From Thermodesulfovibrionales bacterium (lineage in GTDB: Bacteria > Nitrospirota > Thermodesulfovibrionia > Thermodesulfovibrionales > SM23-35), in the NCBI GenBank assembly GCA_030019415.1, contig JASEEX010000007.1, forward strand, positions 1 to 62,486: DNA of 62,486 nt, read 5' to 3'. Positions 30,278 through 62,486 of this stretch are shown piece by piece (the first letter of the stretch is position 1; each line of letters begins with the position of its first letter). A model generated the notes under the pieces. That model worked only from the letters and a program-made list of their open reading frames with translations, was not told where the DNA came from and made no database searches. A program made the translations under genes and the position numbers.

Positions 30278-30706
30278 ATGAAGCGTCGCAGGGCAAGAGA
30301 GTATGCACTACAGATACTATTCCAGATAGATTTTAAAGGGAAAGAGATTGATAGCAAAGACCTCGAAGCTTTCTGGTCTGACAAGGAAGAGAGCGAGGAC
30401 GTTAAGAGGTTCACAGAGGACCTTGTCAGGGGGACCATAAAAAGGCTGAATGAGATAGACTCGATGATTGAAAGGGTAGCAGAAAACTGGATACTAAAGA
30501 GGATGGCTGCAGTAGACAGGAATATACTGAGATTTGCTACATATGAAATACTCTACAGGAAAGATATTCCGTCTGCCGTTACGATAAATGAGGCAATAGA
30601 GATAGCAAAAAAATTCTCTTCTTCAGAGGCAGCTCCCTTCATCAATGGTATTCTTGACAGGCTTGCGAAAGAGGTTGGTAAGTCCGCCTCAGGCGGAGAA
30701 GCCTGA
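30278..30706 (+). CDS. nusB: transcription antitermination factor NusB
   Basis: RRRAREYALQILFQ start and INEAIEIAKKF...FINGILD motifs. Classic ribH-nusB linkage. Confidence 0.9.
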   Translation: MKRRRAREYALQILFQIDFKGKEIDSKDLEAFWSDKEESEDVKRFTEDLVRGTIKRLNEIDSMIERVAENWILKRMAAVDRNILRFATYEILYRKDIPSAVTINEAIEIAKKFSSSEAAPFINGILDRLAKEVGKSASGGEA

Positions 30707-31425
30707 TGCCCTATGCCGTGCTTTCTGATGTCCACTCAAATCTCGAGGCCCTCGAGACCGTTCTAAAAGATATGGATCAAAGGAAGATAGAGGATGTATT
30801 ATTTCTTGGAGATGCAGTAGGATACGGCCCTAACCCGAATGAATGCATTGAGCTTCTCACAAACAGATGTGAGATCATGCTTGCCGGCAACCACGATTGG
30901 GGGGTACTCGGACTAACAGATATCGCATACTTCAATGTATATGCAAGGGCAGCGATAGAGTGGACAAAGCGTGTGCTCACAGAAAAGAATCGCAAAACCC
31001 TTAGATCCTTCCCTGTTAAAAAAGAAATGGGAGATATACTTCTTGTGCATTCGACCCCGAAGGAGCCGGAGGAGTGGCATTATCTACTCACACTCTGGGA
31101 TGCAGAGATAAATTTCCATTATTTCGACAACAAATTCTGTTTCCTCGGGCATAGCCATCAGCCGTTTATTATAGAGAGGCTCCCGTCAGGAGAGCTTGTC
31201 ACATATAAGGAGGCAGCTTCTATAGGAAAAACGGAGAGATACATAATAAACGCTGGAAGTGTCGGTCAGCCCAGGGATGGGAACCCGGAGGCATGCTATG
31301 CGGCTGTTGATGATGAAAAGATGGAGATAGTAAGGGTTCCCTATGATGTAGGGTCAGTACAGAAGATGATGATAAAAGAGGGCCTACCTTCATTACTTAT
31401 AGAAAGACTTTCAAGCGGAAGATAA
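30706..31425 (+). CDS. metallophosphoesterase
   Basis: SDVHSN, GDAVGYGP, GNHD and GHSH metal-binding motifs. Confidence 0.75.
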   Translation: MPYAVLSDVHSNLEALETVLKDMDQRKIEDVLFLGDAVGYGPNPNECIELLTNRCEIMLAGNHDWGVLGLTDIAYFNVYARAAIEWTKRVLTEKNRKTLRSFPVKKEMGDILLVHSTPKEPEEWHYLLTLWDAEINFHYFDNKFCFLGHSHQPFIIERLPSGELVTYKEAASIGKTERYIINAGSVGQPRDGNPEACYAAVDDEKMEIVRVPYDVGSVQKMMIKEGLPSLLIERLSSGR

Positions 31426-31464: not shown

Positions 31465-32148
31465 ATGCAGGGTGCAATAATGAAAGGATCAAAAACAATA
31501 TTGTTAACTTTTATCTTTTTAGGGGTGATAGGAAGTTTTAGTGATGCCTATGCAATACAATTAGGAACAGCGGAATTAGAAATAGAGCCTTATCTAAGAG
31601 GAGGAACAATTGCATGGGACCAGCTTGGTGGTATAGGGGGTCATAAATCTTTAATTGCAGGTGGTTTAAATACTAATGTCAAATTTAATTCTTTTGGTTC
31701 AGGAATCAGTCTTGAAAAATGGTGGGTGGCTGAGGGATTAGACGATGATAAAGGAATTATACCCAGGGAAGGCTACAGTATTTATGGAGATATTAAATAT
31801 TACTTTAAGACTAATGGTATTTTGTTTTATCCCTATGCCGGTGTTGGTTTCGAAGAGTGGGAAAAAGGAGAAACATGGCAAACCTAGAAATCTCTGAAAT
31901 TTTATAATTTTGCAGTTGGGATGGGGATAGAAAATGAAAAAGGTTATATAAAAGCCGGGATAACAAGACCTTTTTCTGCAAGAACCCAGAATGATCTCAA
32001 GCCGAAATTTAGGTATGGTTTCTCTGCAGAAGGCGGAATAAAATTGAAAGCCTTTCTTATAGGTTTATTTTACAGATATTCGGGATTTGAAGACCCGGAT
32101 TCCAAAATGACCCAGAGCGGGTTATTTATAGGGTACAGATTTAAATAG
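31465..32148 (+). pseudogene. small outer-membrane beta-barrel protein gene interrupted by one in-frame TAG (31885-31887)
   Basis: ORFs 31465-31887 and 31921-32148 share a frame with no other stop between them. The joined product has a signal peptide, alternating beta-strand pattern and a C-terminal ...FIGYRFK. Confidence 0.5.
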
Positions 32149-32207
32149 GAGATGGAGTTATTTCTTGGAAGCTCCGCGATAAGGCCTTAAAGATATGATA
32201 TAGTATA

Positions 32208-32327
32208 GTTGTGAACTAAAAGATGTAGATAGTGAGGGTACCCAATGATGTTGAGAGTGTACAGAAGAAGATGAGAAAAGAGGGTTTGCCATCCTTACTG
32301 ATAGAGAGGCTTGCGATAGGTGGATAA
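32208..32327 (+). pseudogene. decayed duplicate of the 3' end of the metallophosphoesterase gene
   Basis: Translates as ..K M * I V R VPNDVESVQKKMRKEGLPSLLIERLAIGG*, against EKMEIVRVPYDVGSVQKMMIKEGLPSLLIERLSSGR* at 31306-31425. It has in-frame stops. Confidence 0.75.
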
Positions 32328-33796: not shown

Positions 33797-34564
33797 ATGA
33801 ACTTAAAGATTCAGCATTACATTGATTTAATAACTGTTTTGACACAGAAGGAAATAAAAGTCAGATACAAGAATAGCTTCCTGGGCTATCTCTGGTCAAT
33901 AGGTCATCCTCTTGCCTTTGCCATGGTTTTTTTCATAGCCTTCAAGGTGGTTATGAGAATACAGATAGAGGATTATGCCCTCTTTCTTATCGCTGGGCTA
34001 TTCCCGTGGCAGTGGTTTAGCAATTCAGTGAATGCTGCTTCAATGGTCTTTCTTGGGAATGCATCAATAATAAAAAAGGTGAATTTTCCAAGAAATTTGA
34101 TTCCCTTTACACAGGTTCTTCAGGACATGATTCACTTTATCTTAGCTATCCCCGTTATAGTGCTTTTCCTTTTTATTTATCATAAATCACCCTCGCTTTC
34201 CTGGGTTTATGGCATCCCAGCATTGTTAGCCATACAGTTCCTGATGACTTATGGTTTCTGCCTTACTGTCTCATCAACAAATCTATTCTTTAGAGACCTT
34301 GAAAGATTGGCGGTTATATTTACGACACTCATGTTTTACTTTACCCCTATCATTTATCCTGAAAGCATGATACCAGAGAGATATAAATATTTAGTAAACA
34401 TTAATCCCCTTACCCCCTTGATGGTGAGCTGGAGAAACCTCTTCCTAAATGGCATATTAGACCCGTTATCTTTGATAATCAGTCTTACATATAGTATTTT
34501 TGCTTTTATGATAGGTTATCTGATATACAGAAGACTCTCTTGGAAGTTTGCAGAAGTCCTATGA
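33797..34564 (+). CDS. wzm: ABC-2 type polysaccharide export permease
   Basis: EIKVRYKNSFLGYLWS signature and 6 TM segments. Confidence 0.8.
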   Translation: MNLKIQHYIDLITVLTQKEIKVRYKNSFLGYLWSIGHPLAFAMVFFIAFKVVMRIQIEDYALFLIAGLFPWQWFSNSVNAASMVFLGNASIIKKVNFPRNLIPFTQVLQDMIHFILAIPVIVLFLFIYHKSPSLSWVYGIPALLAIQFLMTYGFCLTVSSTNLFFRDLERLAVIFTTLMFYFTPIIYPESMIPERYKYLVNINPLTPLMVSWRNLFLNGILDPLSLIISLTYSIFAFMIGYLIYRRLSWKFAEVL

Positions 34565-35304
34565 AAGAGCCTGTAATTATATTTAACGATGTAAGCAAAA
34601 GCTATCCTCTGTATCACCATCTCACAGGGGGGATTAAAAACTTTCTCTTCCACCTTCCAAGAGGGATAAACTCTTTAAAGAATTCAAGATTTGAAGCTCT
34701 CCGTGATATATCTTTTGAGGTCTGCAGAGGAGAAACCTTTGGCATAATAGGCAGAAATGGTGCTGGCAAGAGCACCACATTAGGACTTATTGCAGGTGTT
34801 TTAAAGCCAAGCAAAGGCAGAGTGATAGTAAAAGGCAGGATTTCACCTCTTCTTGAGCTTGGGGCAGGGTTTCATCACGAGCTTACAGGAAAGGAGAATA
34901 TCATGCTCAATGGTGTCCTTATGGGACTTACGAGGGCGGAGGTCTCAAGGAAAATGAATGAGATCATCGAGTTTTCCGAGCTTCGTGACTTTGTAGACCA
35001 GCCCATCAGGACGTATTCAAGTGGCATGCTTGCAAGGCTCGGATTTTCCATTGTGGCACACCTCGAACCCGAGATTTTGCTGATTGATGAGATTCTGGCT
35101 GTAGGAGATATGGGATTTCAAAAGAAGTGCATTGATAAGATGATGGGTTTTAAGAAGAGTGGCGTTACAATGGTTTTTGTATCGCACTCTATGGAGGATA
35201 TAGGAAGGATATGCGACAGAGTGATGTGGATAGAGAATCACACTGCCAGGATGCTGGGAGAGCCCAAGGCTGTTATTGCAGGTTATACGGGAAATAGTCA
35301 ATGA
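34561..35304 (+). CDS. wzt: polysaccharide export ABC transporter ATP-binding protein (no C-terminal carbohydrate-binding extension)
   Basis: Walker A GRNGAGKST, signature YSSGMLARL, Walker B LLIDE. ATGA overlap with wzm. Confidence 0.85.
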   Translation: MKEPVIIFNDVSKSYPLYHHLTGGIKNFLFHLPRGINSLKNSRFEALRDISFEVCRGETFGIIGRNGAGKSTTLGLIAGVLKPSKGRVIVKGRISPLLELGAGFHHELTGKENIMLNGVLMGLTRAEVSRKMNEIIEFSELRDFVDQPIRTYSSGMLARLGFSIVAHLEPEILLIDEILAVGDMGFQKKCIDKMMGFKKSGVTMVFVSHSMEDIGRICDRVMWIENHTARMLGEPKAVIAGYTGNSQ

Positions 35305-35415
35305 CAAATGAGGATGAGTGATTTGATATGATTCCTAAGGGAAGGATAAATAAAAACAGAAGAGATAAAATTTTTCGGATCATGCCATTATGAAAATAAA
35401 AAGAAGGACTGAGAA

Positions 35416-36297
35416 TTGACGGATATAAAGGAAAATATTATTGGAAAATTGAAAGCTTTACCCATTAAGGTGAAGGCTGCTGCTATTTATGGCTCTTGGG
35501 CAAAGGGTGCACAGAAGAAAGACTCAGACCTTGATATATTGTTGATTTCAGATGAGATTAATCCAAGAAGGCATAAAAGGGGTAGAAAAATTGCTGCCAT
35601 CAAAGAATGGCTTTTATTGGACTTTCCATTGGATATTTTGTTACTGACAACAAAAGAGTGTCTCTCAAATTTCAAAAATCATAATCCCCTCTTTCTGGAT
35701 ATTGCATGGGAGGGTATCATTCTGTTGGATGAGGATGATTTCTTGAAATCTTTGATTGAAGAAACGAGGGTGTACATATCCGAGAGAGGGATCAAGAAAC
35801 TTGACGATGGTTGGAAATTTCCCGTACTTGATAGAAAGGCAGTGTTACTTTCTAAGGTGAGTAATGAGGACTTCGCAATAGCAATGCTTATAGATGGAGA
35901 AAGGGATTTTAAGATTGGCACGAGCATTATGAATAATGGTTATTATGACAAAGCGGTATATCATTTTCAGCAGTCTGTAGAGAAAGCGGTAAAGGCTGTC
36001 TTGATATGTTTCGGGATATTCAAAAAGACTCATTTTGTTGGAGAGATACTGAATAAAGAACTTGGGGAAAGAAAACTCAATAAAGACTGGAGGGAAAAAC
36101 TCATGCAGATCGCAAGGGTGAGTTCTGAAGTAGAGCCAGAGGTAACCTGGAGCCGTTACCCAGGAATGGACGAAGGTACTTTATGGATTCCATATAAAGA
36201 ATATACTGTTGATGATGCAAACGAGGTTAAAGAGAAATGCGGGAAAGCAATCAGGGCAGCAAGGGAATTTATTGAATGGTGGTTCGGAGATAAGTAG
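35416..36297 (+). CDS. fused nucleotidyltransferase (MNT-like) plus HEPN domain protein
   Basis: N-terminal GSWAKG...DSDLDILL NTase motif. C-terminal HEPN-like helices (YYDKAVYHFQQSVEKAVKAVL ... SRYPG). TTG start with an AAGGA RBS. Confidence 0.7.
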   Translation: MTDIKENIIGKLKALPIKVKAAAIYGSWAKGAQKKDSDLDILLISDEINPRRHKRGRKIAAIKEWLLLDFPLDILLLTTKECLSNFKNHNPLFLDIAWEGIILLDEDDFLKSLIEETRVYISERGIKKLDDGWKFPVLDRKAVLLSKVSNEDFAIAMLIDGERDFKIGTSIMNNGYYDKAVYHFQQSVEKAVKAVLICFGIFKKTHFVGEILNKELGERKLNKDWREKLMQIARVSSEVEPEVTWSRYPGMDEGTLWIPYKEYTVDDANEVKEKCGKAIRAAREFIEWWFGDK

Positions 36298-36310
36298 ATG
36301 GTTGAGGATA

Positions 36311-36554
36311 GCACATTTGGCCTTGAAATCTTATTAATGACGAGATTCTGGCTGAAAGATATAGAGTTTCAGAAAAGTGCATTGATAAAATGATGGGATT
36401 TAAGAAAAGTGGGGTTACAATGGTTTTTGTATCGCACTCTATGGTTGATGTGGAGGGGATATGCGACAGGGTGATGTGGATAGAGTCGCATACCATAAAA
36501 ATGATAGGAGAGCCCAAGGTTGTTGTAGCGGGTTATAATAAAATTATAATATAA
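36311..36554 (+). pseudogene. wzt 3'-end remnant, copy 2
   Basis: Translates LINDEILAERYRVSEKCIDKMMGFKKSGVTMVFVSHSMVDVEGICDRVMWIESHTIKMIGEPKVVVAGYNKIII*, colinear with the Wzt C-terminus. I counted 4 mismatches in a 70-nt core against 35125-35194. Confidence 0.85.
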
Positions 36555-36746
36555 CATAGGGACAACGTTATTTTTCTTGACCCTATTGACTGGATGAAAA
36601 TGAACGAGAAGATTATGCTAAATTTCTCTAAAAATATGGGGGGCGTGTCCCTTTATTAATTATTCTGAGCTGTGAAACGACAGATTAAGTTAAATATATA
36701 GTGGGACTGCAGCCTTTAGCTTAAGAATAACAATAAGGAGGAGAAT

Positions 36747-37085
36747 ATGCCTTTTGATACCTCTTTATGGGAAAAGATTATCGAGAGGAAATATACTGAG
36801 AGGGAAAAGATAAGGATAGAGACCCTTGATACTTTGATCATGAAACTCAGGGATTATTTCACCCACAAAAAGGTGAAAGGGGTTTATATAATAGGCTCAG
36901 TTTTAAAAGAAGGGGCGTTTTATGATTTTTCAGATATAGATATTGCTGTAGATGGTTTTTCAGATGATTATTTCAGGGTTTCAGCAGAGCTTGAGGATCT
37001 TGTTAGTAGAGAAATAGAGTTGATTGAGCTTGAGAAATGTAAATTTAAAGAGAGTATTGAAAAATACGGCTTGAGGGTGTTATGA
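36747..37085 (+). CDS. MNT-type nucleotidyltransferase (antitoxin-like)
   Basis: GSVLKEG...FSDIDIAV NTase motif, 112 aa. It overlaps the next ORF (ATGA). Confidence 0.75.
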   Translation: MPFDTSLWEKIIERKYTEREKIRIETLDTLIMKLRDYFTHKKVKGVYIIGSVLKEGAFYDFSDIDIAVDGFSDDYFRVSAELEDLVSREIELIELEKCKFKESIEKYGLRVL

Positions 37086-37549
37086 AGATAGAAGCTATTG
37101 CATTGTTAATGGGCTATTTAGCAGATCAGAAAGAGGAGATAGGTAAACTCTTTGGAGAGATAAAAAACACCGAGCCTGCAGGCAATGTGAAAACAGTTTA
37201 CCTGGGCTATTTCCTGCATAACCTTTATTGTGCCTTTGAAGACTTATTTAAAGAGGTAGCAAGGACCTTTGAAAATCAGATAAATGACTCCTCCATATAC
37301 CACAGAGAACTTCTAAAGAGAATGACTCTTGAAGTTCCAGGAATAAGACCGCCATTTTTATCGAAAGAGAGTTATAAAATCCTTGATGAATTGAGAAGAT
37401 TTAGACACACCTTTAGACATGCTTACACATATGAACTTGACTCAACAAAGGTCAACGATCTAAAGCAGAAAACCCTCTTGGTCTGGGACAATATAGAATC
37501 AGATATAAGAAACTTTGAGCAGTTTTTAAAAGACAAAATGAAGGAGTAA
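37082..37549 (+). CDS. HEPN/HepT-like protein (toxin-like partner)
   Basis: LRRFRHTFRHAY contains RxxxxH-type motifs. It is all-helical, 155 aa, and translationally coupled to the MNT gene. Confidence 0.55.
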   Translation: MKIEAIALLMGYLADQKEEIGKLFGEIKNTEPAGNVKTVYLGYFLHNLYCAFEDLFKEVARTFENQINDSSIYHRELLKRMTLEVPGIRPPFLSKESYKILDELRRFRHTFRHAYTYELDSTKVNDLKQKTLLVWDNIESDIRNFEQFLKDKMKE

Positions 37550-37571
37550 TGTGTAGTTTTTGCGGTTATGT

Positions 37572-37757
37572 GAATTTCAGAAAAAGTGTATTGATAAAAT
37601 GATGGGCTTTAAAAAAAGCGGAGTTACAATGGTTTTTGTTTCACATTCTATGACGGATGTAAAGAGGATATGTGATAAGGTGATGTGGATAGAAAACCAT
37701 TCCATAAAAATGACTGGAGAACCCGAGGTTGTTATTAAAGCCTACAGTGGGCTATAA
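37572..37757 (+). pseudogene. wzt 3'-end remnant, copy 3
   Basis: EFQKKCIDKMMGFKKSGVTMVFVSHSMTDVKRICDKVMWIENHSIKMTGEPEVVIKAYSGL* is colinear with the Wzt C-terminus. It lacks the Walker A, signature and Walker B motifs. Confidence 0.85.
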
Positions 37758-37864: not shown

Positions 37865-38263
37865 ATGAAAAGGTTAAAACAAAACAATCAAAGAGGGTTC
37901 ACACTTATAGAAATACTAATAGTGGTGGCAATAATCGGGCTTATAGCCTCTCTAATAGCTCCGAATCTTCTTGGACGGTTTGAAAAATCAAAGGAAGAGA
38001 TAACCAAGGCACAGGTAGAGATGCTCTCATCAAGTGTTCAATCTTTCATTCTTGATGTTGGTATGTGCCCCAATTCTCTTAACGAACTTATAACCTCCGA
38101 CGATCCTAAATGGCGAGGTCCTTACCTTTCAAAGAAAGAAATACCTCTTGATCCATGGGGTAAAGAATACCAGTATAAATGCCCCGGAGAACATGGCCCC
38201 TTTGACCTTTATTCACTTGGTCCCAATAACAGGCTCGATGAAAGGGCTATAAAGAACTGGTAG
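37865..38263 (+). CDS. gspG: type II secretion major pseudopilin
   Basis: Prepilin leader ...QRG/FTLIEILIVVAIIG with Glu at +5. C-terminal DPWG..Y.Y GspG-type motif. Confidence 0.85.
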   Translation: MKRLKQNNQRGFTLIEILIVVAIIGLIASLIAPNLLGRFEKSKEEITKAQVEMLSSSVQSFILDVGMCPNSLNELITSDDPKWRGPYLSKKEIPLDPWGKEYQYKCPGEHGPFDLYSLGPNNRLDERAIKNW

Positions 38264-38265
38264 CA

Positions 38266-39945
38266 ATGCTTATAGGTGAAATTCTGCTAAACCTCTTCGG
38301 AGTAAAGGCAGAAGATATAAACAAGGCATTAGATATCCAGAAGGAGGTCGGAGGTTATATAGGGCAAATTCTTATTCAGACAGGTACGATCACCGAAACG
38401 CAACTACTCCAAGCCCTTTCAGCACAGCTTAAGCTGCCTGTTTTAAATAGCGAAAATAGCAATTCATCCACAGAAGATATCTTATCTTTCGTAGAGGATA
38501 AGTTAGATATCAATTTTGTTGTTGAGAATGGATTTGTCCCCATTGGGATAGACCATCAATCCCGCATTTTGAGCTTCGTAACAAATGACCCACTAAAAAA
38601 TCCTATCATTAATTATGTTGCAAAGTCCATGGATTACGATATACATCTGATATTGGCCCCTGAAAAAACCATCAAGGATCTTTCAAAAAAATACATTCTG
38701 GATTCTATGGATGGTGTTGTTTCCTTAGGCGTTGAGGAGAGCGTTGAGAGACTGAAAGATATGGCATTTGAGGCACCGGTTATTAAGTACCTGAACAGCA
38801 TGTTGAGCCGTGCCGTAGAGCTGACTGCATCAGATGTCCATATAGAACCTTCTGAGAATAGATATAGGGTGAGGTTTAGAATAGACGGGGTACTGCATGA
38901 TATTGATTCACTGAAAGAGGAATTTTATCTTGCACTGGTATCAAGGATTAAGCTCCTTTCTGGTTTAGATATTGCTGAAAGGAGATTGCCCCAGGATGGG
39001 AAGTTTACCACAAAGATAGGCTCCACCTTCCTTGATTTAAGAATTTCAACAATACCAATCCTCAAAGGAGAAGATGTGGTAATAAGACTCCTATACAGAG
39101 GTAGACTCAGCTTTGACTTGAGGCATCTCGGGCAGATGGATGACCACTATACTATTATCAGGAATATGATCTCAAAGCCATACGGTATGATACTCGTAAC
39201 AGGGCCAACAGGTTCAGGAAAGACTACAACCCTTTACTCCATGCTCACATATCTAAATAACGATGAGAAAAAGATAGTAACCATAGAGGATCCCGTGGAA
39301 TACCAGCTTGGGGGTCTAAACCAACTACAGGTAAAGAGCGATGTAGGATTAACCTTTGCAAGTGCCCTCAGATCTATCCTGAGACATGACCCGGACATAA
39401 TAATGGTTGGTGAGATAAGGGACAAGGAAACAGCGAGGATATCCATCCAGTCTGCCCTTACAGGTCATCTTGTTCTTTCCACATTACACACCAACGATGC
39501 AGCAAGCAGCCTCTTCAGGCTCTTAGACATGGGAATCGAAGATTATTTGATTAATGCCTCTGTTATTGGTATTATTGCCCAGCGTATCATCAGATTGAAC
39601 TGCCCTCACTGTAGCACTGAAGACTATCTCTCAGAGGATATCATAAAACAATACAGGATATATGAGATCCATGATAAATACCGTGCACTTATTGGTAACA
39701 TAAATTTCAGGAGAGGTAAGGGATGTTCCAAATGCGTTGGCACTGGATACAGAGGCCGCACTGCCATATTTGAGCTATTTGAATATGAGGAGGATCTAAA
39801 GAAGATATTCATTAGAATGCATTCCCTTGAGGCTATAAGAGACTCCATTGTCTCTTACCCTTATTTCAGGACATTAAGAGATGATGGGATACTGAAGGTA
39901 ATAGACGGCCGCACAACAATTGAAGAGGTCTTGAGGGTTACTTGA
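38266..39945 (+). CDS. gspE: type II secretion / type IV pilus assembly ATPase
   Basis: Walker A GPTGSGKTTT, Asp box, Walker B, His box (LSTLHTNDA), tetracysteine CPHC...CSKC, and an N-terminal T2SSE_N-like repeat. Confidence 0.9.
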   Translation: MLIGEILLNLFGVKAEDINKALDIQKEVGGYIGQILIQTGTITETQLLQALSAQLKLPVLNSENSNSSTEDILSFVEDKLDINFVVENGFVPIGIDHQSRILSFVTNDPLKNPIINYVAKSMDYDIHLILAPEKTIKDLSKKYILDSMDGVVSLGVEESVERLKDMAFEAPVIKYLNSMLSRAVELTASDVHIEPSENRYRVRFRIDGVLHDIDSLKEEFYLALVSRIKLLSGLDIAERRLPQDGKFTTKIGSTFLDLRISTIPILKGEDVVIRLLYRGRLSFDLRHLGQMDDHYTIIRNMISKPYGMILVTGPTGSGKTTTLYSMLTYLNNDEKKIVTIEDPVEYQLGGLNQLQVKSDVGLTFASALRSILRHDPDIIMVGEIRDKETARISIQSALTGHLVLSTLHTNDAASSLFRLLDMGIEDYLINASVIGIIAQRIIRLNCPHCSTEDYLSEDIIKQYRIYEIHDKYRALIGNINFRRGKGCSKCVGTGYRGRTAIFELFEYEEDLKKIFIRMHSLEAIRDSIVSYPYFRTLRDDGILKVIDGRTTIEEVLRVT

Positions 39946-41144
39946 TGAATTTCCAATACAGGGGGGTGGATATTTCAGGCAAGGAACTGAAGGGGACATT
40001 ATCGGCTATTAACCCCGATGATGCTATGTCAAGGCTAAGGGGGATGGGGCTTACGATTATATATTTAGCCGAAAAGAAAGGCCTTTTAGAGAAGAGGCCC
40101 TTTGGCAAGAAAAGGATAACAGACACGGATCTGTATAATCTCTCGAAGGAATTAAGTGTCCTTCTAAATGCCGGCATAAATATAGATCATGCCCTGGACA
40201 TACTTTTAGGCTCTACCTCAAAAACATCTCTCAAGGATACACTGGCGCAGATTCTCAGGGACATAAAAGGTGGGAAGACCCTGTCGCAGGCGTTTGCAGA
40301 CACTCAAAAGTTTAACCCACTCATAAATGTGATGATAAAGGTTGGAGAGAATGTGGGTGACATCAGAGCTGCCTTTGAAAATATCGCACAGTATATACAT
40401 TTTCAGATACAGTTTAAAAACGAGATAAGAAACGCAATGGCATATCCTATCTTCCTTGTATTTGCAAGCATCGTAATTCTATTTGCTATATTCAAGTTAA
40501 TTATCCCGAGATTTTTCAGCATATTTGGTCAGGAAAGTGCCTCTTTACCCTTTGTCTCGAGGGTACTGTATTCCATCAGCAATTTCATAAACTCCACCAA
40601 TATATTCTTTTTCCTCTTGGGCATTGGCCTGATAGGCATATCTTTAAGATATATGAATCTGAAAAAAATACTTCAAGGGGTCTATTCATACCTCGTATAC
40701 ATCCCGTTTTTAAAAAACCTGATCATACACCTTGAGCTTTCGAAGTTTTCATACTCCATGTACACAATGCTGAAAAGTGGCGTTGAGTTTATAAATGCCC
40801 TGATATTGTCAAAGGATGTTATACAAAACACTATGATGAAGGTAGAAATCGAAAGAACTGAACAACAGATTAAAGAGGGAAAGGGCATTGCAGATGTATT
40901 CTCTTACGTAAGTTTCATGCCGCCCATGATGCATAGCATGCTCAGGGTTGGTGAAACAAGTGGTAATCTAAGGGATATATTCTTTGAATTTTATATGGTC
41001 TTTGATGAGAGGTTCAAGAATTCTATGAGAAGGATACTTGCGCTCGTGGAACCAATAGTTATTACTATAATGGGTGTTGTCGTTGGGATTATTGTTATAT
41101 CCTTGATACTCACGGTTATGAGTGTCAGCAACATAAAGTTGTGA
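39942..41144 (+). CDS. gspF: type II secretion inner-membrane platform protein
   Basis: 400 aa, duplicated GspF domain architecture with 3 TM segments. Confidence 0.9.
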   Translation: MMNFQYRGVDISGKELKGTLSAINPDDAMSRLRGMGLTIIYLAEKKGLLEKRPFGKKRITDTDLYNLSKELSVLLNAGINIDHALDILLGSTSKTSLKDTLAQILRDIKGGKTLSQAFADTQKFNPLINVMIKVGENVGDIRAAFENIAQYIHFQIQFKNEIRNAMAYPIFLVFASIVILFAIFKLIIPRFFSIFGQESASLPFVSRVLYSISNFINSTNIFFFLLGIGLIGISLRYMNLKKILQGVYSYLVYIPFLKNLIIHLELSKFSYSMYTMLKSGVEFINALILSKDVIQNTMMKVEIERTEQQIKEGKGIADVFSYVSFMPPMMHSMLRVGETSGNLRDIFFEFYMVFDERFKNSMRRILALVEPIVITIMGVVVGIIVISLILTVMSVSNIKL

Positions 41145-41150
41145 ACAGGG

Positions 41151-55624: not shown

Positions 55625-55778
55625 ATGAATAAACTTTTTTCATTTTCGGTACTCGTCCTGAGGCCATAAAGATGGCTCCACTGATATTAAAGGCAAGTGC
55701 TAACGCCTCATTTAATGTCGGGCTCTGTGCTACAGGACATCACGATGAGATGCTCCAACAGGTTTTGGATTTCTCAGG
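55625..55778 (+). pseudogene. frameshifted remnant of the wecB 5' end
   Basis: atgaataaacttttttcattttcggtactcgtcctgaggccat... is colinear with 56758-56910 of intact wecB. One missing nt near the start gives an early TAA. Confidence 0.85.
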
Positions 55779-56014
55779 AAAGATGTCTGAGTTATGCTCT
55801 TTCAACTAAGAACTATTCGTTCCCCGAAATTTGGATAGGAGATTAAACGCATTAATTTACCTTGTCATTAGATTACTTGGAAGGTAAATGGCAACTTTCT
55901 ACCAACGGATCTGGGTACTCTGTTTAGGGAGATACACTAAAGCCATCTGTGATATAATATAATCTACTTTACGTATAAGTACTGAAATAAATCACAGAAC
56001 AATGAGGAAACCCT

Positions 56015-56350
56015 ATGTCAGGGGGTAAGAAGTCATATAGCGATACCATAGTTGAGAGATTTTTATCTATGATTTCACCTTTAGGGGAAAATATAAAGGA
56101 GATGTATCTATTTGGTTCAAGATGTCGGGATGATTGGCGACCTGATTCAGATTTCGATTTTTTAATTGTTGTTAATAGAAAGGACAGAGAGTTTACCAGT
56201 AAACTATATGATGCAGTCATGTACATACTCCTTGATACAGGCAGGTTAATATCCCTTAAGATTTTCACAGCCTCTGAGTTTAACCGCCTGAAGTCAATTC
56301 CTACCCCTTTCATGCATAGTGTCACTAAGGAGGGTATAAGGCTTATTTAA
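56015..56350 (+). CDS. MNT-type nucleotidyltransferase
   Basis: LFGSRCRDDWRPDSDFDFLIVV NTase motif, 111 aa. Confidence 0.75.
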   Translation: MSGGKKSYSDTIVERFLSMISPLGENIKEMYLFGSRCRDDWRPDSDFDFLIVVNRKDREFTSKLYDAVMYILLDTGRLISLKIFTASEFNRLKSIPTPFMHSVTKEGIRLI

Positions 56351-56351
56351 A

Positions 56352-56754: not shown

Positions 56755-57867
56755 ATGATGAAACTTCTCTTCATTTTCGGTACACGTCCAGAGGCCATTA
56801 AACTGGCTCCTGTGATACTAAAAGCACAAAAAGATGAATCCTTTGATGTCAGGATCTGTGTAACCGGTCAGCACAATGAGATGCTCCACCAGGTTTTAGA
56901 TTTCTTCAGGATAGAACCAGATTATGACCTGAATATTATGCAGCCTGACCAGTCTCTCTACGATGTTACAGCTAATACGATTAAATTCCTTGAAAATGTC
57001 ATTGCTTCAGAAAATCCATCGCTGGTTTTAGTGCAGGGTGACACTACCACTGCCTTTATAGGTGCGCTGGCCTCTTTTTACCAGAAGGTTCCTGTAGCAC
57101 ATATCGAAGCAGGCCTCAGGAGCCACAACAAGTATTCGCCATTCCCGGAAGAGATAAACAGGGTTTTAGTTGGACACCTCGCAGATTATCATTTTGCTCC
57201 AACTTTAAGGACAAAAGAAAATCTGATCAGAGAAGGTATAAACGAGGACAGGATTTATATTGTTGGTAATACAGTTATTGATGCCCTATTTTTGACCCTT
57301 GAGATTATAAAAAATCAAGAGGACAGGTTTTTGGAATATTTTGATTGGTTAAATATCGAAAAACCTATAATACTTGTGACATGCCATAGACGAGAGAGCT
57401 TCGGTGAGCCTTTCAAAAATATCTGTCTGGCTCTTAGGGATATTGCTGAAGAAAATAATGTTGAAATTGTTTATCCAGTACATCTAAACCCAAATGTGAG
57501 AGAACCTGTTTTTGAAATACTCAACGGGCTTAAAAATATACATCTTATTGAGCCATTGAGTTATCCATACCTCGTATGGCTTATGGAAAAATCTTCTCTG
57601 ATACTTACAGATTCTGGAGGGATACAGGAGGAGGCACCGAGCCTCGGAAAACCAGTTCTTGTAATGAGAGAGGTTACTGAAAGGGTAGAAGGAATTGAGG
57701 CAGGAACTTGTAAATTAGTTGGAACAGAAAAGGAAAAGATAGTGGATGAAACTATTCGCCTTTTAACTGATCTTGATGAATATGAGAGAATGGCAAAATC
57801 TGTAAATCCTTATGGTGATGGAAAATCCTCTAAAAAAATATTAAAGATTCTTTCTGATATGATCTAA
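56755..57867 (+). CDS. wecB: UDP-N-acetylglucosamine 2-epimerase (non-hydrolysing)
   Basis: FGTRPEAIKLAPV, VQGDTTT, HIEAGLRS and DSGGIQEEAPSLGKPVLVMR motifs. Confidence 0.9.
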   Translation: MMKLLFIFGTRPEAIKLAPVILKAQKDESFDVRICVTGQHNEMLHQVLDFFRIEPDYDLNIMQPDQSLYDVTANTIKFLENVIASENPSLVLVQGDTTTAFIGALASFYQKVPVAHIEAGLRSHNKYSPFPEEINRVLVGHLADYHFAPTLRTKENLIREGINEDRIYIVGNTVIDALFLTLEIIKNQEDRFLEYFDWLNIEKPIILVTCHRRESFGEPFKNICLALRDIAEENNVEIVYPVHLNPNVREPVFEILNGLKNIHLIEPLSYPYLVWLMEKSSLILTDSGGIQEEAPSLGKPVLVMREVTERVEGIEAGTCKLVGTEKEKIVDETIRLLTDLDEYERMAKSVNPYGDGKSSKKILKILSDMI

Positions 57868-59261: not shown

Positions 59262-60332
59262 ATGATCGCTATAAATTCACGTTTTTTAACTCAAAAAGTC
59301 TCCGGCGTTCAACGATATGCTATAGAGATATCGAAACAACTCAAAAAATTGTATCCTGAAACAAGATTTGCTGCGCCTAAAAATATCATTCATAGAGAAC
59401 TGGCCGAGCGTTTAGAAGCTGTAGAGTATGGAACACTAACGGGGCATCTGTGGGAACAAATAGAGCTTCCAAAATATTTAAAGGAAAATAACAACCCATT
59501 GCTTATAAATTTGGCGAATACTGCCCCTTTGTCTTATAACAATCAGATAGTCACGATTTGTGACCTTTCTTTTTTGAGAAATCCAAAATGGTTCTCAAAG
59601 AAATTTTATTTTTACTATAAATTTCTGATACCACGAATAGCCAAAAACTCTTTAAAAATTATTACGATCAGTGAATTCTCAAAAAATGAGATAATAGAGT
59701 TACTTGATGCCCGTGAAAGTAAGATTAAAGTCATTCATTGCGGAGGTGCTGAAGAATTTGCCAATCTTATAGACAACGATTCAGTAATTGATTATAGAAC
59801 CAAAAAATACATATTATCAGTTTCCACATTAGGTCCAAGAAAAAATCTTGAAAGTCTAATTTTGGCCTTTCGAAAATTAAAGGTACCTGATATCCAATTG
59901 ATAATCGTCGGATCAAAAAATAACAATTTTGCAAACAATAACTTAAAAAATCTGATAAATGCTGACAAAAATATTATTTTTACTGGATATATTTCAGATA
60001 TAGAGTTAGTGTCTCTATATAGAAATGCCATGTTATTTGTTTACCCCTCTCTTTACGAAGGATTTGGTCTTCCGCCTTTGGAGGCCATGGGTTGCGGAGT
60101 GCCTGTTGTAGTTTCCAACGTTGCAAGCCTGCCTGAGATATGTGGTAATGCAGCGTATTATGTTGATCCATATAATGTGGAAAGTATAGCTGAAGGGATA
60201 TATAAAGTGTTGACTGATGAACCGCTTCGGCAAAGCCTGATCAAAAAAGGACTTGAGAGAGTTAAGCTTTTTAGCTGGGAAAAGTCGGCAAAAGAGCATA
60301 TTAAAGTTTTTGAAGAGGTTTTGAATAGTTGA
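59262..60332 (+). CDS. family 4 (group 1) glycosyltransferase
   Basis: YPSLYEGFGLPPLEAMGCGVPVVVSN E-x7-E motif. Confidence 0.85.
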   Translation: MIAINSRFLTQKVSGVQRYAIEISKQLKKLYPETRFAAPKNIIHRELAERLEAVEYGTLTGHLWEQIELPKYLKENNNPLLINLANTAPLSYNNQIVTICDLSFLRNPKWFSKKFYFYYKFLIPRIAKNSLKIITISEFSKNEIIELLDARESKIKVIHCGGAEEFANLIDNDSVIDYRTKKYILSVSTLGPRKNLESLILAFRKLKVPDIQLIIVGSKNNNFANNNLKNLINADKNIIFTGYISDIELVSLYRNAMLFVYPSLYEGFGLPPLEAMGCGVPVVVSNVASLPEICGNAAYYVDPYNVESIAEGIYKVLTDEPLRQSLIKKGLERVKLFSWEKSAKEHIKVFEEVLNS

Positions 60333-60428: not shown

Positions 60429-60866
60429 ATGATTATGCGTAAAAGAAGATTATCCGGAGAAGAGAGAGGCTACCTGATTGAAAGGATTGCTGCTATCCTG
60501 AAAGAAAAGGAATATGTTCTCTTTGCCTATATCTTTGGCTCTTTTGCTTCAGGAGAAAGTTTTAATGATATAGATGTCGGCATCTTTATCTCTGGGGAAA
60601 GGCTTAACTCCCCGCTAAGGCTGGAATTGGAGATGGAAAGGGAGTTAGAGGATGCTGTCCGTATCCCCGTAGATATTAGGATCATCAACAATGCACCGCC
60701 GTCTTTTATCTATAATGTCTTAAAAAGCGGGCTTGTGATTGTGGATAACAATAAATCGCTTAGGGCTGACTTTGAAGGGTTGGTCTACAAAAAATATTTT
60801 GATTTTCAACATCTAAGAAATGAATATTTAAGAGAGATTATAAATGCCCCTCTTCAATCCAGATAA
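60429..60866 (+). CDS. mntA: MNT-type nucleotidyltransferase antitoxin
   Basis: FGSFASGESFNDIDVGIF NTase motif. It overlaps the downstream HepT-like ORF. Confidence 0.8.
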   Translation: MIMRKRRLSGEERGYLIERIAAILKEKEYVLFAYIFGSFASGESFNDIDVGIFISGERLNSPLRLELEMERELEDAVRIPVDIRIINNAPPSFIYNVLKSGLVIVDNNKSLRADFEGLVYKKYFDFQHLRNEYLREIINAPLQSR

Positions 60867-61278
60867 AATAGCGAGATTAGTTTCTGAGATGCGTAAGGCT
60901 ATAAGTCGTTTGAAGTCCCTCGGAACCATTGACAAAGAATCATTCTTAAATGATCCTGATAAAATAGACAGTGCAAAGTATAATTTTGTTATCGCAATAG
61001 AATCTTCCATTGATATCTGTAATCACATTATATCTCAGAATAGCTATAGAGCTCCTGAGGATTATGCAGATACCTTCCAGGTCTTAGGAGAACATGGAGC
61101 CTTTGACAAAGACTTTGTTAAAGATTTAAAGGAGATGGCGAGGTTCCGAAATAGATTAATCCATTTGTACTGGGAGGTGGACGATGAGCAGGTATATGAA
61201 ATTCTACAATCCGGACTTGAGGACTTTAAAACTTTTATGGACAGAATAGCGGCATTTTTGAAATTGGAGAAGCTTTAG
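60844..61278 (+). CDS. hepT: HepT/DUF86-type HEPN toxin
   Basis: RNRLIHLY (R-x4-H HEPN motif), 144 aa, classic two-gene MNT-HepT layout. Confidence 0.8.
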   Translation: MPLFNPDKIARLVSEMRKAISRLKSLGTIDKESFLNDPDKIDSAKYNFVIAIESSIDICNHIISQNSYRAPEDYADTFQVLGEHGAFDKDFVKDLKEMARFRNRLIHLYWEVDDEQVYEILQSGLEDFKTFMDRIAAFLKLEKL

Positions 61279-61337
61279 TTCTTAACCGAAACATAAAGAG
61301 TAATCGGTGGATAGAGCATTCTTAAATTTTCTTGCGA

Positions 61338-61424
61338 GAAGGTCTTGAAAGGGCAAAGCTTTTTAGCTGGGAAAAATCAGCTAAAGAGCATCTTAAGGTC
61401 TTTGAAGAAGTTTTAATGGTTTAA
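61338..61424 (+). pseudogene. remnant of the GT4 gene 3' end, copy 2
   Basis: Translates EGLERAKLFSWEKSAKEHLKVFEEVLMV*, against KGLERVKLFSWEKSAKEHIKVFEEVLNS* at the end of 59262-60332. Confidence 0.85.
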
Positions 61425-62344: not shown

Positions 62345-62486
62345 CCTGTTTCCTTTTTTATGTTTGTGGTCTCCAATGTCGCAGGTCTTTCCAAGGTTTG
62401 TGGTGATGTAGTGTATTATGTTGATCCATAAAATGTGGAAAGCATTGCCATAAGGTGCTCACGGATGACACTTTACGACAGAGTCT
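62345..62486 (+). pseudogene. remnant of the GT4 gene 3' region, copy 3 (runs off the window)
   Basis: Colinear with about 60100-60240 (...VVSNVA..CG.A.YYVDPYNVESIA...KVLTD..LRQSL). It has TAT>TAA at DP*NVES and an indel before KVLTDDTLRQS. Confidence 0.8.

What the first reader, a model, noticed from the sequence alone, without database searches (positions are those of the whole stretch)
35055..37757. Three copies of the wzt 3' end separated by MNT/HEPN cassettes: insertions that regenerate the gene end
Seen: intact wzt ends at 35304. Two diverged copies of its last ~190-245 nt follow, at 36311-36554 and 37572-37757. Both still read as Wzt C-termini (..CIDKMMGFKKSGVTMVFVSHSM..ICD.VMWIE.H...). 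Exactly one nucleotidyltransferase/HEPN cassette sits in each interval (35416-36297 fused; 36747-37549 two-gene). A 70-nt core differs at only 4 positions between the intact copy and copy 2 by my manual alignment. Copy 3 is more diverged. Established knowledge: Campbell-type single crossover of a circular molecule carrying a gene fragment leaves direct repeats of the gene end flanking the insert. Integrative elements that target a gene end and carry a replacement end do the same. Inference: these TA cassettes were added one after another at the end of wzt, each event restoring a functional wzt and pushing the old end downstream. No integrase or transposase is visible. The crossover points differ between copies, which suggests homology-driven capture, or excision as small circles, rather than a fixed att site. 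The same footprint recurs at three other loci in this window.
Basis: partly seen in the sequence, partly recalled or inferred. Interest (0 to 1): 0.8.

Follow-up and report, generated by a model that had tools for sequence, protein, structure and literature searches.

The report
Orphaned wzt ends between stacked toxin-antitoxin cassettes
Two small toxin-antitoxin cassettes sit behind a sugar-export gene, each followed by a leftover end of a different version of that gene, which marks repeated gene swapping by recombination rather than a new kind of mobile element.

Summary
Intact wzt (34561-35304) is followed by two wzt 3'-end remnants, 36311-36554 and about 37572-37757. A fused MNT-HEPN gene lies in the first interval and an MNT/HepT pair in the second. 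Independent contigs from the same sample cover every junction.

The copies are not duplicates made on the spot. They are 74-82% identical, and most differences are synonymous (pN/pS 0.17-0.24; pooled window P = 8e-8 against in-situ duplication). They are therefore different wzt alleles that diverged while functional. The remnant left edges differ by about 50 nt, no integrase was found, and there are no attC-like sites.

The same footprint occurs at three other loci in the window, one with a non-TA insert. It also occurs in other uncultivated genomes, mostly around TA cassettes (MNT/HEPN, VapBC) but also around glycosyltransferase or methyltransferase genes.

Best reading: serial recombinational displacement in a hypervariable polysaccharide locus. 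Incoming DNA carrying a diverged allele plus a cassette joins through one homologous crossover and one illegitimate or repeat-borne crossover. TA addiction then probably protects the scars.

Closest known cases are Rhs/CDI/T6SS orphan arrays and restriction-modification "long target duplication". I rate it a new variant of a known kind. The circle/Campbell idea is untested.

The parts
33797..34564 (+). wzm, the ABC-2 permease of the polysaccharide exporter
   Evidence: Pfam ABC2_membrane
34561..35304 (+). Intact wzt, a short-form ABC ATPase of 247 aa. An alternative TTG start lies at 34540.
   Evidence: Pfam ABC_tran, E = 1.3e-18. 80% aa identity to the wzt of a Nitrospirota MAG.
35055..35304 (+). 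Copy 1: the part of intact wzt that is repeated downstream
   Evidence: Alignment A1; repeat family D1
35305..35415 (+). Spacer 1. It has no homology to the other spacers.
35416..36297 (+). Cassette 1: a fused MNT-HEPN protein of 293 aa. The GS..DxD nucleotidyltransferase motif is present, but my regex found no canonical Rx4-6H motif.
   Evidence: Pfam NTP_transf_2 plus HEPN; motif scan; 505 homologues found
36311..36554 (+). Copy 2: an orphan wzt 3' end with its own stop codon, two frameshifts and an in-frame stop near its 5' edge. It starts about 14 nt after the cassette 1 stop codon.
   Evidence: 82% nt identity to copy 1 over 53 codons
36555..36746 (+). Spacer 2, with a terminator-like hairpin at 36636-36656
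36747..37085 (+). Cassette 2: the MNT antitoxin-type nucleotidyltransferase (112 aa)
   Evidence: Pfam Polbeta/NTP_transf_2; GS..DxD motif
37082..37549 (+). Cassette 2: the HepT-like HEPN toxin-type protein (155 aa). It overlaps the MNT gene by 4 nt and carries the RFRHTFRH motif.
   Evidence: Pfam HepT-like_2, E = 1.5e-30; motif scan
37572..37757 (+). Copy 3: an orphan wzt 3' end that is still an open frame. It is 74% nt identical to copy 1, 79% to copy 2 and 79% to the wzt of another MAG.
37865..41144 (+). gspG/gspE/gspF-like type II secretion genes downstream of the array
   Evidence: Precomputed Pfam families on the identical Logan contig: T2SSG, T2SSE, T2SSF
30706..31425 (+). Second locus: the intact metallophosphoesterase gene
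   Evidence: Pfam Metallophos_2
31465..32148 (+). Second locus, the insert: a signal-peptide, OMP-like ORF split by one in-frame TAG. It is not a TA cassette.
   Evidence: no Pfam hit
32175..32325 (+). Second locus: an orphan metallophosphoesterase 3' end with three in-frame stops
55625..55780 (+). Third locus: an orphan wecB 5' end with a 1-nt deletion. It starts 6 nt after the stop codon of the upstream glycosyltransferase gene.
56015..56350 (+). Third locus, the insert: a lone MNT gene. No HEPN partner was detected.
   Evidence: Pfam; ORF list
56755..57867 (+). Third locus: intact wecB (UDP-GlcNAc 2-epimerase)
   Evidence: Pfam Epimerase_2, E = 1e-123
59262..60332 (+). Fourth locus: the intact GT4 glycosyltransferase gene
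   Evidence: Pfam Glycos_transf_1
60429..61278 (+). Fourth locus, insert 1: an MNT plus HepT pair
   Evidence: Pfam Polbeta and HepT-like, E = 7e-35
61329..61415 (+). Fourth locus: orphan glycosyltransferase 3' end 1 (29 codons)
61541..62316 (+). Fourth locus, insert 2: a UPF0175 plus DUF3368 two-gene cassette, TA-like by gene layout
   Evidence: Pfam
62364..62486 (+). Fourth locus: orphan glycosyltransferase 3' end 2, with an in-frame stop and a 10-nt deletion. It runs off the end of the window.

Best explanation
The array records serial recombinational displacement in a hypervariable polysaccharide gene cluster.

Each unit (a wzt end, a spacer and a cassette) comes from a separate horizontal event. 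In each event, DNA from a lineage with a diverged wzt allele and a TA cassette beside it recombined into this locus. One side joined by homologous pairing in wzt or neighbouring genes. The other side joined illegitimately, as in homology-facilitated illegitimate recombination, inside or just beside the other allele's wzt end. The result is one intact wzt plus truncated 'orphan' ends of other alleles.

Shown:
- The copies are distinct alleles that diverged while under selection as coding sequence.
- The cassettes are unrelated to each other.
- The edges of the remnants vary.
- No recombinase gene or att/attC site was found.
- The same scars occur at other genes and in other genomes, sometimes with passenger fragments of unrelated genes.

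Inferred:
- The one-anchor recombination mechanism itself.
- That TA addiction (post-segregational killing) explains why TA cassettes dominate the surviving scars. It would do this by penalising replacements or repeat-mediated deletions that remove a resident cassette.

Unresolved: the direction of growth. The newest unit may be next to intact wzt, with the old ends being resident relics. Alternatively the remnants may be the ragged ends of incoming fragments.
For: 1. Synonymous-biased divergence. Over 53 shared codons the three wzt copies give pS 0.46-0.79 against pN 0.11-0.13. Pooled remnant-versus-intact comparisons in the window give pN/pS = 0.235, with P = 7.7e-8 against the >=0.5 expected if a remnant had decayed neutrally since an in-situ duplication. 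The two remnants compared with each other reject neutrality at P = 3e-7.

2. Copy 3 is as close to the wzt of another Nitrospirota MAG (79% nt) as it is to copy 2, and closer than to copy 1 (74%).

3. The cassette proteins share no BLAST-detectable similarity with each other.

4. The remnant left edges lie at about wzt nt 35055 and about 35105-35118. The longest block shared by all three copies is 17 nt.

5. No integrase or transposase was found in the Pfam scans. No conserved inverted repeats were found.

6. The three other window loci show the same signature, pN/pS 0.15-0.35. One of them has a non-TA insert.

7. Other genomes show the same scars:
- L061 has a wzt 5' remnant against an intact wzt, 84% nt identical, pN/pS 0.11, P = 1.5e-8.
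- L061 and L063 share a 2.9-kb unit (ugd end, fused MNT-HEPN, AAA_14) at 94.6% identity in different contexts. In L063 a 112-nt passenger wzt 5' piece abuts a ugd-end remnant.
- L104, L101/L102, L129-131, L067, L065, L069, L080 and L098 carry comparable remnants.

8. The model has precedent in T6SS effector/immunity arrays and Rhs C-terminal displacement (PMC5361080).
Against: - In all five window cases the remnant starts only about 10-50 nt after the cassette's stop codon. That is tighter than random fragment ends would predict, and it hints at units with inherited boundaries.
- No empty-site or intermediate genome was found for this organism. It appears in only one sequencing run, so no event is polarised and no illegitimate joint in the window can be compared with its parents.
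- Recombination between sequences 18-26% diverged is inefficient.
- The role of addiction is pure inference.
- Sample sizes per remnant are small (13-45 substitutions). The wecB and metallophosphoesterase remnants alone do not reject dN/dS = 0.5.
Confidence: 0.6

Rival explanations
1. The cassettes are integrase-free mobile units that ride on host homologous recombination. A cassette flanked by two copies of a gene end can loop out as a circle of about 1.1-1.25 kb (cassette plus one gene end). Alternatively it can be taken up as linear DNA whose two arms are the gene and the remnant. It then integrates into any genome with a homologous gene end, by a Campbell crossover or a double crossover, which recreates the diverged-repeat footprint.
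For: - The outcome is indistinguishable from the observed structure. Both flanking copies would be alleles with a history of selection.
- Cassette-to-remnant junctions are tight, about 10-50 nt in the window and 18 nt in L067. Unit lengths are uniform at 1250, 1209, 1131 and 1092 nt. Both features fit inherited unit boundaries.
- A 2.9-kb unit of ugd end plus cassette is shared at 94.6% identity by two different contexts, and homology begins at the same left boundary in both.
- The de Bruijn graph at the 31-mer shared by copies 1 and 2 can also be resolved as a linear chromosome plus a 1250-nt circle.
- Kobayashi's group proposed a comparable life cycle for restriction-modification units (PMC2853133).
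Against: - There is no direct evidence for circles.
- The exact identity blocks are short (31 and 17 nt), which is poor substrate for RecA.
- The same footprint flanks non-selfish genes.
- Related loci show illegitimate joints with passenger fragments, which a purely homologous route does not produce.
- Homologous cassettes also sit cleanly between core genes with no repeats.
Confidence: 0.25
2. In-situ 'insertion with long target duplication'. Each cassette inserted with a staggered duplication of 190-245 nt of the wzt end, and the downstream copy has decayed since.
For: - The geometry matches: a selfish two-gene unit, no mobility gene, and long direct repeats of variable length.
- This is a described mode for restriction-modification systems (PMC2853133).
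Against: - The repeats are 74-82% identical rather than near-identical.
- The divergence is synonymous-biased, with pN/pS well below the 0.5 minimum that this model allows.
- Copy 3 is as close to another genome's wzt as to its neighbours.
Confidence: 0.04
3. Site-specific integration, by a tyrosine recombinase or an integron-like system acting in trans, at an att site inside the wzt end. The element would carry a replacement end.
For: - Elements that target gene 3' ends and carry a substitute end are well known (established knowledge).
- Some homologous cassettes in other genomes lie in arrays separated by conserved non-coding repeats that could be recombination sites.
Against: - No integrase was found in the Pfam scans of the window.
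- The remnants begin at different wzt positions.
- Four different genes, and both 5' and 3' ends, are targeted within one window.
- There is no conserved palindrome or attC-like sequence after the cassettes.
Confidence: 0.05
4. Assembly artefact. Strain variants with different cassettes behind wzt were concatenated by the assembler.
For: - The window looks metagenomic.
- The copies share a 31-mer at which a k=31 assembly breaks.
Against: - Each cassette-to-remnant junction lies inside a single contig of an independent assembly.
- Copy 2 starts as a frameshifted pseudogene fused about 14 nt after the cassette 1 stop codon. That cannot come from an intact allele in another strain.
- The same architecture is seen in unrelated assemblies.
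Confidence: 0.03

Closest known systems
C-terminal displacement and orphan-module arrays in Rhs, CDI and T6SS effector-immunity loci. HFIR is the proposed mechanism (Kirchberger et al. 2017, PMC5361080, which cites Jackson 2009 and Poole 2011).
   Same: - One intact gene is followed by a string of orphaned 3' fragments of other alleles, each with its own small downstream gene or genes.
- The array is built by successive horizontal replacements.
- No dedicated recombinase is involved.
- Retention of the old downstream genes is favoured.
   Different: - In those systems the displaced 3' end encodes the variable toxin, and the retained gene is its cognate immunity.
- Here the displaced end is the ordinary C-terminus of an ABC ATPase (or of an epimerase, glycosyltransferase or phosphoesterase).
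- Here the retained genes are autonomous TA cassettes with no functional tie to the host gene.
- 5' ends are displaced as well as 3' ends.
Insertion with long target duplication of restriction-modification gene units (Nobusato 2000; Furuta, Abe and Kobayashi 2010, PMC2853133)
   Same: - An addictive, selfish gene unit lacks its own mobility gene.
- It is flanked by long direct repeats of local sequence, of variable length (tens to hundreds of bp).
- The insertions often lie at gene ends.
   Different: - There the repeats are near-identical (for example 417/423) and correspond to one target copy in empty-site genomes.
- Here they are 74-82% identical alleles with a purifying-selection signature.
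- No empty site is available for this organism.
Homology-facilitated illegitimate recombination in transformable bacteria (de Vries and Wackernagel 2002; Prudhomme 2002; Meier and Wackernagel 2003, as cited in PMC5361080; also PMC3240628)
   Same: - One homologous anchor and one illegitimate joint bring in foreign DNA that has no homologue in the recipient.
- Passenger fragments and truncated resident genes are left at the joint.
   Different: - HFIR is a laboratory-defined mechanism.
- Here it is only inferred from scars.
- The competence of this organism is unknown.
Type VII HepT/MntA and fused MNT-HEPN (FhepTA) toxin-antitoxin modules (PMC7641770; PMC13000451)
   Same: The cassette genes have the MNT and HEPN/HepT domains and the gene order of these modules. 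Cassette 1 has the fused MNT-then-HEPN order.
   Different: - Toxicity and AMPylation were not tested.
- The HEPN half of cassette 1 is of the PF05168 type, and my scan found no canonical Rx4-6H motif in it.
- Its relationship to the Shewanella FhepTA proteins was not examined.

Membership tests
Insertion with long target duplication (restriction-modification-type selfish gene insertion) | The insert is a selfish gene unit without its own transposase or integrase | tested here: met
   Pfam shows only TA-type domains in the inserts and no mobility genes among the window ORFs scanned.
Insertion with long target duplication (restriction-modification-type selfish gene insertion) | The flanking direct repeats are duplicates of one target sequence, so they are near-identical at birth and the downstream copy then decays neutrally | tested here: not met
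   The copies are 74-82% identical. pN/pS is 0.17-0.24 (dN/dS 0.08-0.17 where it could be computed), and the pooled test gives P = 8e-8 against dN/dS >= 0.5.
Insertion with long target duplication (restriction-modification-type selfish gene insertion) | An empty-site genome carries a single copy of the repeat | not testable with these tools
   The organism was found in only one run, SRR23186780. The closest wzt elsewhere is 80-84% aa identical and lies in a different gene context.
Orphan-module arrays by C-terminal displacement (Rhs/CDI/T6SS type) | An intact gene is followed by orphan 3' fragments of diverged alleles, each followed by its own small gene or genes | tested here: met
   The same holds at the glycosyltransferase locus.
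Orphan-module arrays by C-terminal displacement (Rhs/CDI/T6SS type) | The displaced 3' region encodes a polymorphic toxin domain and the downstream gene its cognate immunity | tested here: not met
   The displaced region is the conserved ABC ATPase C-terminus. The downstream genes are self-contained MNT/HEPN modules.
Orphan-module arrays by C-terminal displacement (Rhs/CDI/T6SS type) | An illegitimate joint lies at the distal side of each incoming module | tested here: inconclusive
   The parental sequences of the window junctions are unknown. Related loci do show abrupt joints between unrelated gene fragments (L063 wzt 5' piece against ugd end; L104; L130).
Site-specific integrative element targeting a gene end | An integrase or recombinase gene lies in or beside the element | tested here: not met
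   None was found in the Pfam scans of window ORFs.
Site-specific integrative element targeting a gene end | A fixed att core: the repeats start at the same position and share an identical core | tested here: not met
   The left edges differ by about 50 nt. The longest block common to all three copies is 17 nt, inside conserved codons.
Integron cassette array | An attC imperfect palindrome follows each cassette ORF, and an intI gene is present | tested here: not met
   The remnants start 10-14 nt after the stop codons. There are no conserved inverted repeats or shared spacer sequence, and no intI was found.
HepT/MntA (type VII) toxin-antitoxin module | An MNT gene with the GS..DxD motif sits upstream of, and overlaps, a HEPN/HepT gene with the Rx4-6H motif | tested here: met
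   Met for cassette 2 (36747-37549) and for 60429-61278. In cassette 1 the domains are fused, and no canonical Rx4-6H motif was found in it.
HepT/MntA (type VII) toxin-antitoxin module | The toxin arrests growth and is neutralised by AMPylation | not tested
   This needs an experiment.
Wzm/Wzt polysaccharide ABC exporter | An ABC ATPase gene lies adjacent to an ABC-2 permease gene within a glycan gene cluster | tested here: met
   A WbaP-like initiating transferase gene lies upstream at 32375-33790.

The most novel reading that the evidence does not exclude
TA cassettes flanked by copies of a conserved host gene end are a general, integrase-free class of mobile unit. Host RecA would excise them as circles of about 1.1-1.25 kb, or carry them on transforming DNA, and would reinsert them at the homologous gene in a new genome. 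The carried gene end would serve as a built-in homology arm, and the toxin would enforce retention. This would give chromosomal TA modules (MNT/HEPN, VapBC) their own route of horizontal spread across phyla.
Probability: 0.2. Interest if true: 0.8.

Novelty: new variant of a known kind. Interest (0 to 1): 0.55.

Why it matters
How chromosomal TA modules move without transposases or integrases is poorly explained. This window, together with scars in other MAGs (labelled Nitrospirota/Nitrospirae, Thermodesulfovibrionales and Ignavibacteriae) and metagenome contigs, points to one route. TA cassettes travel with the ends of neighbouring conserved genes and are stacked by recombination between diverged alleles. 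This leaves datable orphan gene ends.

If that holds, the orphan ends are a searchable footprint for reconstructing the order and sources of TA acquisitions. The idea that addiction biases which recombinants survive in hypervariable surface-polysaccharide loci also becomes testable.

It also has a practical side. Short 'lipopolysaccharide transport ATP-binding protein' ORFs of 50-90 aa in metagenome annotations include such remnants.

Tried and rejected
- **Exact-protein look-ups.** Look-ups of Wzt with both possible starts found nothing. The organism is present in one run only, so no population or empty-site comparison was possible.
- **Single-protein scan for cassette 1.** A scan of GTDB genomes found no relatives. 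An alignment-based scan was needed.
- **Tandem duplication of end plus cassette.** Rejected, because the cassettes share no similarity.
- **In-situ target duplication.** Rejected by the substitution pattern.
- **Crossover mapping inside the copies.** The 67-70-nt high-identity core between copies 1 and 2 coincides with invariant amino acids. Its synonymous divergence is not clearly lower than elsewhere, so it is not evidence for a crossover.
- **Spacer homology.** Spacers and junctions match nothing in 1.7 Mb of fetched loci, apart from one REP-like palindrome. No passenger fragments could therefore be named in the window.
- **Polarising the events.** The decay state of the remnants gives conflicting hints: wzt copy 2 is more broken than copy 3, while GT remnant 2 is more broken than remnant 1. 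Native-looking coupling of remnants to their outer neighbours (wecB remnant; L067) fits every model. The direction is left unresolved.
- **False positives.** L018 (high-GC paralogues), L072 (HicB-type paralogues) and the L060 small ORFs (a HEPN fragment and REP-like sequence) were not gene-end remnants.
- **Literature.** Searches for a direct precedent of TA cassettes with gene-end remnants found none. The searches were limited.

Full report
**Observation.**
The region lies in a polysaccharide gene cluster. A WbaP-like initiating transferase gene (32375-33790) is followed by wzm (33797-34564) and a short-form wzt (34561-35304). Downstream of the intact wzt there are two further wzt 3' ends.

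- The repeat finder reports one three-member family of 174 nt at 35114, 36364 and 37573, at 81% and 75% identity.
- tblastn of Wzt against the window hits 36312-36539 and 37575-37751, with E about 1e-28.
- MAFFT aligns all three copies through to their own stop codons, after which similarity stops.
- Copy 2 (36311-36554) has two frameshifts and an in-frame stop near its 5' edge but 58 clean codons thereafter. Copy 3 (about 37572-37757) is an open frame.

The intervals hold a fused MNT-HEPN gene (35416-36297) and an overlapping MNT/HepT-like pair (36747-37085 and 37082-37549). The nucleotidyltransferase GS..DxD motifs are intact. The Rx4-6H motif is present in the HepT gene but was not found in the fused protein.

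Two contigs from an independent Logan assembly of run SRR23186780 are 100% identical to 35165-36443 and 36415-41178. Every cassette/remnant junction is therefore covered inside a contig. The only break is at the 31-nt block shared by copies 1 and 2.

**What the copies are.**
Over the 53 codons shared in frame, nucleotide identity is 82% (copies 1 and 2), 74% (1 and 3) and 79% (2 and 3). Nei-Gojobori counts give pS = 0.46, 0.79 and 0.65 against pN = 0.11, 0.13 and 0.11.

If a remnant had arisen by duplication in place and decayed neutrally, any comparison involving it should show dN/dS >= 0.5.

- A conditional binomial test, which is conservative because it is uncorrected for synonymous saturation, rejects that for copies 1-3 (P = 4e-4) and 2-3 (P = 1e-3).
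- It also rejects it for the pooled remnant-versus-intact comparisons across the window (pN/pS = 0.235, P = 7.7e-8).
- Copy 3 is as similar to the wzt of a different Nitrospirota MAG (79% nt, 81% aa) as it is to its neighbours.

The three copies are therefore three alleles that diverged while each was part of a working gene. They are not products of a target duplication. The two cassettes share no detectable similarity with each other or with the other cassettes in the window, so they are separate acquisitions.

**Surroundings.**
The first 30 kb of the window is ordinary core chromosome: glycogen synthase, UvrA, DapB, ScpB, RecN, the riboflavin operon and nusB. No integrase or transposase was found among the ORFs scanned.

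All five TA-type cassettes of the window lie in the glycan region, and each sits beside a gene-end remnant.

- The wzt pair described above.
- A lone MNT gene (56015-56350) between an orphan wecB 5' end (55625-55780) and intact wecB.
- An MNT/HepT pair (60429-61278) and a UPF0175/DUF3368 pair (61541-62316), each followed by an orphan end of the glycosyltransferase gene at 59262-60332.

A fourth locus has an orphan metallophosphoesterase end (32175-32325). Its insert is not a TA cassette but an OMP-like ORF broken by one TAG codon.

These remnants carry stops or indels, yet they still show pN/pS of 0.15-0.35. No conserved inverted repeat, attC-like site or shared spacer sequence accompanies the cassettes. 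The remnant edges fall at different positions of the host gene.

**Is it more than background?**
The same terminal-remnant scan was run on several sets of loci.

| Set | Size | Result |
|---|---|---|
| 57 wzt loci from GTDB genomes | 763 kb | 2 genuine cases (L002, L021) |
| 80 JGI metagenome wzt loci | 533 kb | 2 distinct arrangements (L115; L129-131) |
| Loci chosen for a fused MNT-HEPN homologue | 350 kb | 8 hits |
| This window | 62 kb | 5-6 remnants |

The window is strongly enriched, and TA-rich neighbourhoods in general are richer in such scars.

**Related sequences.**
Close homologues (about 75%) of cassette 1 occur in other glycan loci with the same footprint.

- In L061 (GCA_040960995.1), wzm is followed by a 137-aa wzt 5' fragment, a UPF0175 gene, a ugd 3' fragment, the fused MNT-HEPN gene, an AAA_14 gene and then intact wzt. 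The wzt fragment is 84% nt identical to the intact gene, with pN/pS = 0.11 (P = 1.5e-8).
- L063 carries the same 2.9-kb unit (ugd end, MNT-HEPN, AAA_14) at 94.6% identity, but in another context. There it is followed by a 112-nt passenger piece of a wzt 5' region, joined abruptly to a second ugd-end remnant.
- L067 (a Nitrospirae MAG) has a DegT-family gene, then a TA cluster that includes a fused MNT-HEPN. It then has the last 22 codons of another DegT allele, which overlap the start of the next gene.

Searching with the copy 3 peptide returned only short (42-92 aa) 'LPS transport ATP-binding' ORFs, which look like orphan wzt ends. In the two whose contigs I examined, they are.

- L104: wzt, a DUF4258 cassette, a wzt-end remnant and a manC 5' remnant.
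- L101/L102: three wzt-end copies, a DUF7718/DUF5647 pair and a wbaP-end remnant.
- L129-131: wzt, an rfbA 5' fragment, a 319-aa gene and a wzt-end remnant.

Further cases in Ignavibacteriae, Thermodesulfovibrionales and Nitrospirae MAGs have VapBC-like or HepT inserts (4 of 6) or glycosyltransferase/methyltransferase inserts (2 of 6). Their inserts are 0.9-3 kb long and their pN/pS is 0.15-0.32.

Conversely, most of the 32 GTDB loci with a fused MNT-HEPN gene show no gene-end repeats. Homologues of cassette 2 sit cleanly between panD and lgt, or behind a phosphomutase-family gene, with no repeats. The footprint is therefore a property of the recombination history of the locus, not of a cassette-encoded mechanism.

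**Mechanism.**
The simplest account is serial displacement.

1. DNA from a lineage with a diverged allele and an adjacent cassette enters the cell.
2. It pairs homologously on one side.
3. It is joined illegitimately on the other side, inside or next to the other allele's gene end. This is homology-facilitated illegitimate recombination.
4. Repetition stacks the units.

This is the model proposed for T6SS effector-immunity arrays, and earlier for Rhs and CDI orphan 3' ends (PMC5361080). The abrupt joints and passenger fragments in L063, L104 and L130 are what such events leave behind.

I infer, but did not show, that TA addiction biases survival. Recombinants or repeat-mediated deletions that lose a resident cassette would be killed. 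TA cassettes and the scars beside them would then accumulate, while scars around ordinary genes would be rarer.

The direction of growth is unresolved. Either the copy next to intact wzt is the newest and the remnants are resident relics, or the remnants are the ragged ends of incoming fragments anchored in the downstream genes. Decay states give conflicting hints. Native-looking coupling of remnants to their outer neighbours fits both readings.

A GC3 step inside wzt, from about 0.35 before nt 34860 to about 0.52 after it, may mark a crossover. It is only suggestive.

**Rivals.**
It would better explain two features. The remnants start only 10-50 nt after the cassette stop codons. The unit lengths are uniform at 1.09-1.25 kb. 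However, identity blocks are short (31 and 17 nt), the footprint also flanks non-selfish genes, and illegitimate joints exist in related loci.
- *In-situ long target duplication*, as described for restriction-modification units (PMC2853133), is rejected by the substitution pattern.
- *Site-specific integration* is not supported. No recombinase or fixed core was found, and four different genes and both gene ends are involved.
- *Assembly artefact* is unlikely, given the independent contigs and the pseudogenised junction.

**Novelty and verdict.**
The architecture works like known orphan-module arrays and resembles restriction-modification insertions with long repeats, but it fails a defining feature of each.

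- The displaced ends are not toxin domains.
- The repeats are not duplicates.

I found no description of TA cassettes stacked between orphaned ends of housekeeping or glycan genes (the searches were limited). I rate it a new variant of a known kind and of moderate interest. It gives a concrete, searchable footprint for how chromosomal TA modules spread without mobility genes, and a testable role for addiction in shaping hypervariable surface-polysaccharide loci.

Noticed in passing
window 41149-41298: A perfect tandem duplication of a 75-nt unit (100% identity) lies at the start of the ORF 41141-41683. That ORF has a GspG-like N-terminal segment further in. It could be a recent duplication in a pseudopilin gene or an assembly stutter.
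   Followed up: no
window 52195-52356: An imperfect tandem repeat with an 84-nt period (82% identity) lies inside the 1557-aa multidomain glycosyltransferase. It encodes a repeated EKxSLGSQLNQTIAEKDSL segment.
   Followed up: no
window 48229-48316, 49143-49207, 56582-56660: A palindromic REP-like element of about 80 nt (core TTCCCGC..GCGGGAATGAC) occurs in intergenic DNA. The copy at 56582-56660 lies in the 400-nt gap between the lone MNT gene and wecB. Similar copies occur in unrelated MAG and metagenome loci (L069, L106, L108, L117).
   Followed up: partly
window 34561-35301: GC3 rises from about 0.35 in the first 100 codons of wzt to 0.47-0.60 in the rest. This may be a recombination breakpoint near 34860, but the significance is marginal.
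   Followed up: partly
window 35164-35194 and 36414-36444: The independent k=31 contigs end exactly at the 31-mer shared by copies 1 and 2. At that k the graph could equally be resolved as wzt-cassette 2 plus a 1250-nt circle made of cassette 1 and a hybrid wzt end. Reads are needed to tell.
   Followed up: no
window 31465-32148: The signal-peptide, OMP-like ORF is one 227-codon frame interrupted by a single TAG at 31885-31887. It has no Pfam match.
   Followed up: partly
window 56015-56754: The MNT gene at the wecB locus has no detectable HEPN partner. The 400 nt downstream hold only the REP-like element.
   Followed up: partly
L068 3301-3385, 4197-4292, 6045-6185: In a Nitrospiraceae MAG, three copies of a non-coding repeat rich in CTTTAC motifs separate a HEPN/MNT pair and a fused MNT-HEPN plus RelE-like pair. 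This is the same stacking geometry, but with intergenic rather than gene-end repeats.
   Followed up: partly
L078, L086, L096, L097, L100: In Atribacteria, Ignavibacteria and Bacteroidetes MAGs, TA-type cassettes, including fused MNT-HEPN homologues, lie in arrays separated by 50-350-nt direct repeats at 85-98% identity. These may be integron-like or CALIN arrays. They were not tested for attC structure.
   Followed up: no
P0121-P0136: A 60-aa Wzt C-terminal query returned only 42-92-aa proteins, several annotated as 'lipopolysaccharide transport system ATP-binding protein'. In the two whose contigs were examined they are orphan wzt ends, so annotation pipelines are calling some such remnants as genes.
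   Followed up: partly
P0002-P0120 contig lengths: Many Logan contigs carrying fused MNT-HEPN homologues are only 1.0-1.5 kb long, about cassette size. That is the pattern expected if flanking repeats break short-k assemblies, but short contigs are also typical of that collection.
   Followed up: no
L102 4017-5529 and 10377-11890: One metagenome contig carries two wzm-wzt pairs that are 97-99% identical at the protein level. In one pair wzt is frameshifted, and IS elements lie between the pairs.
   Followed up: no
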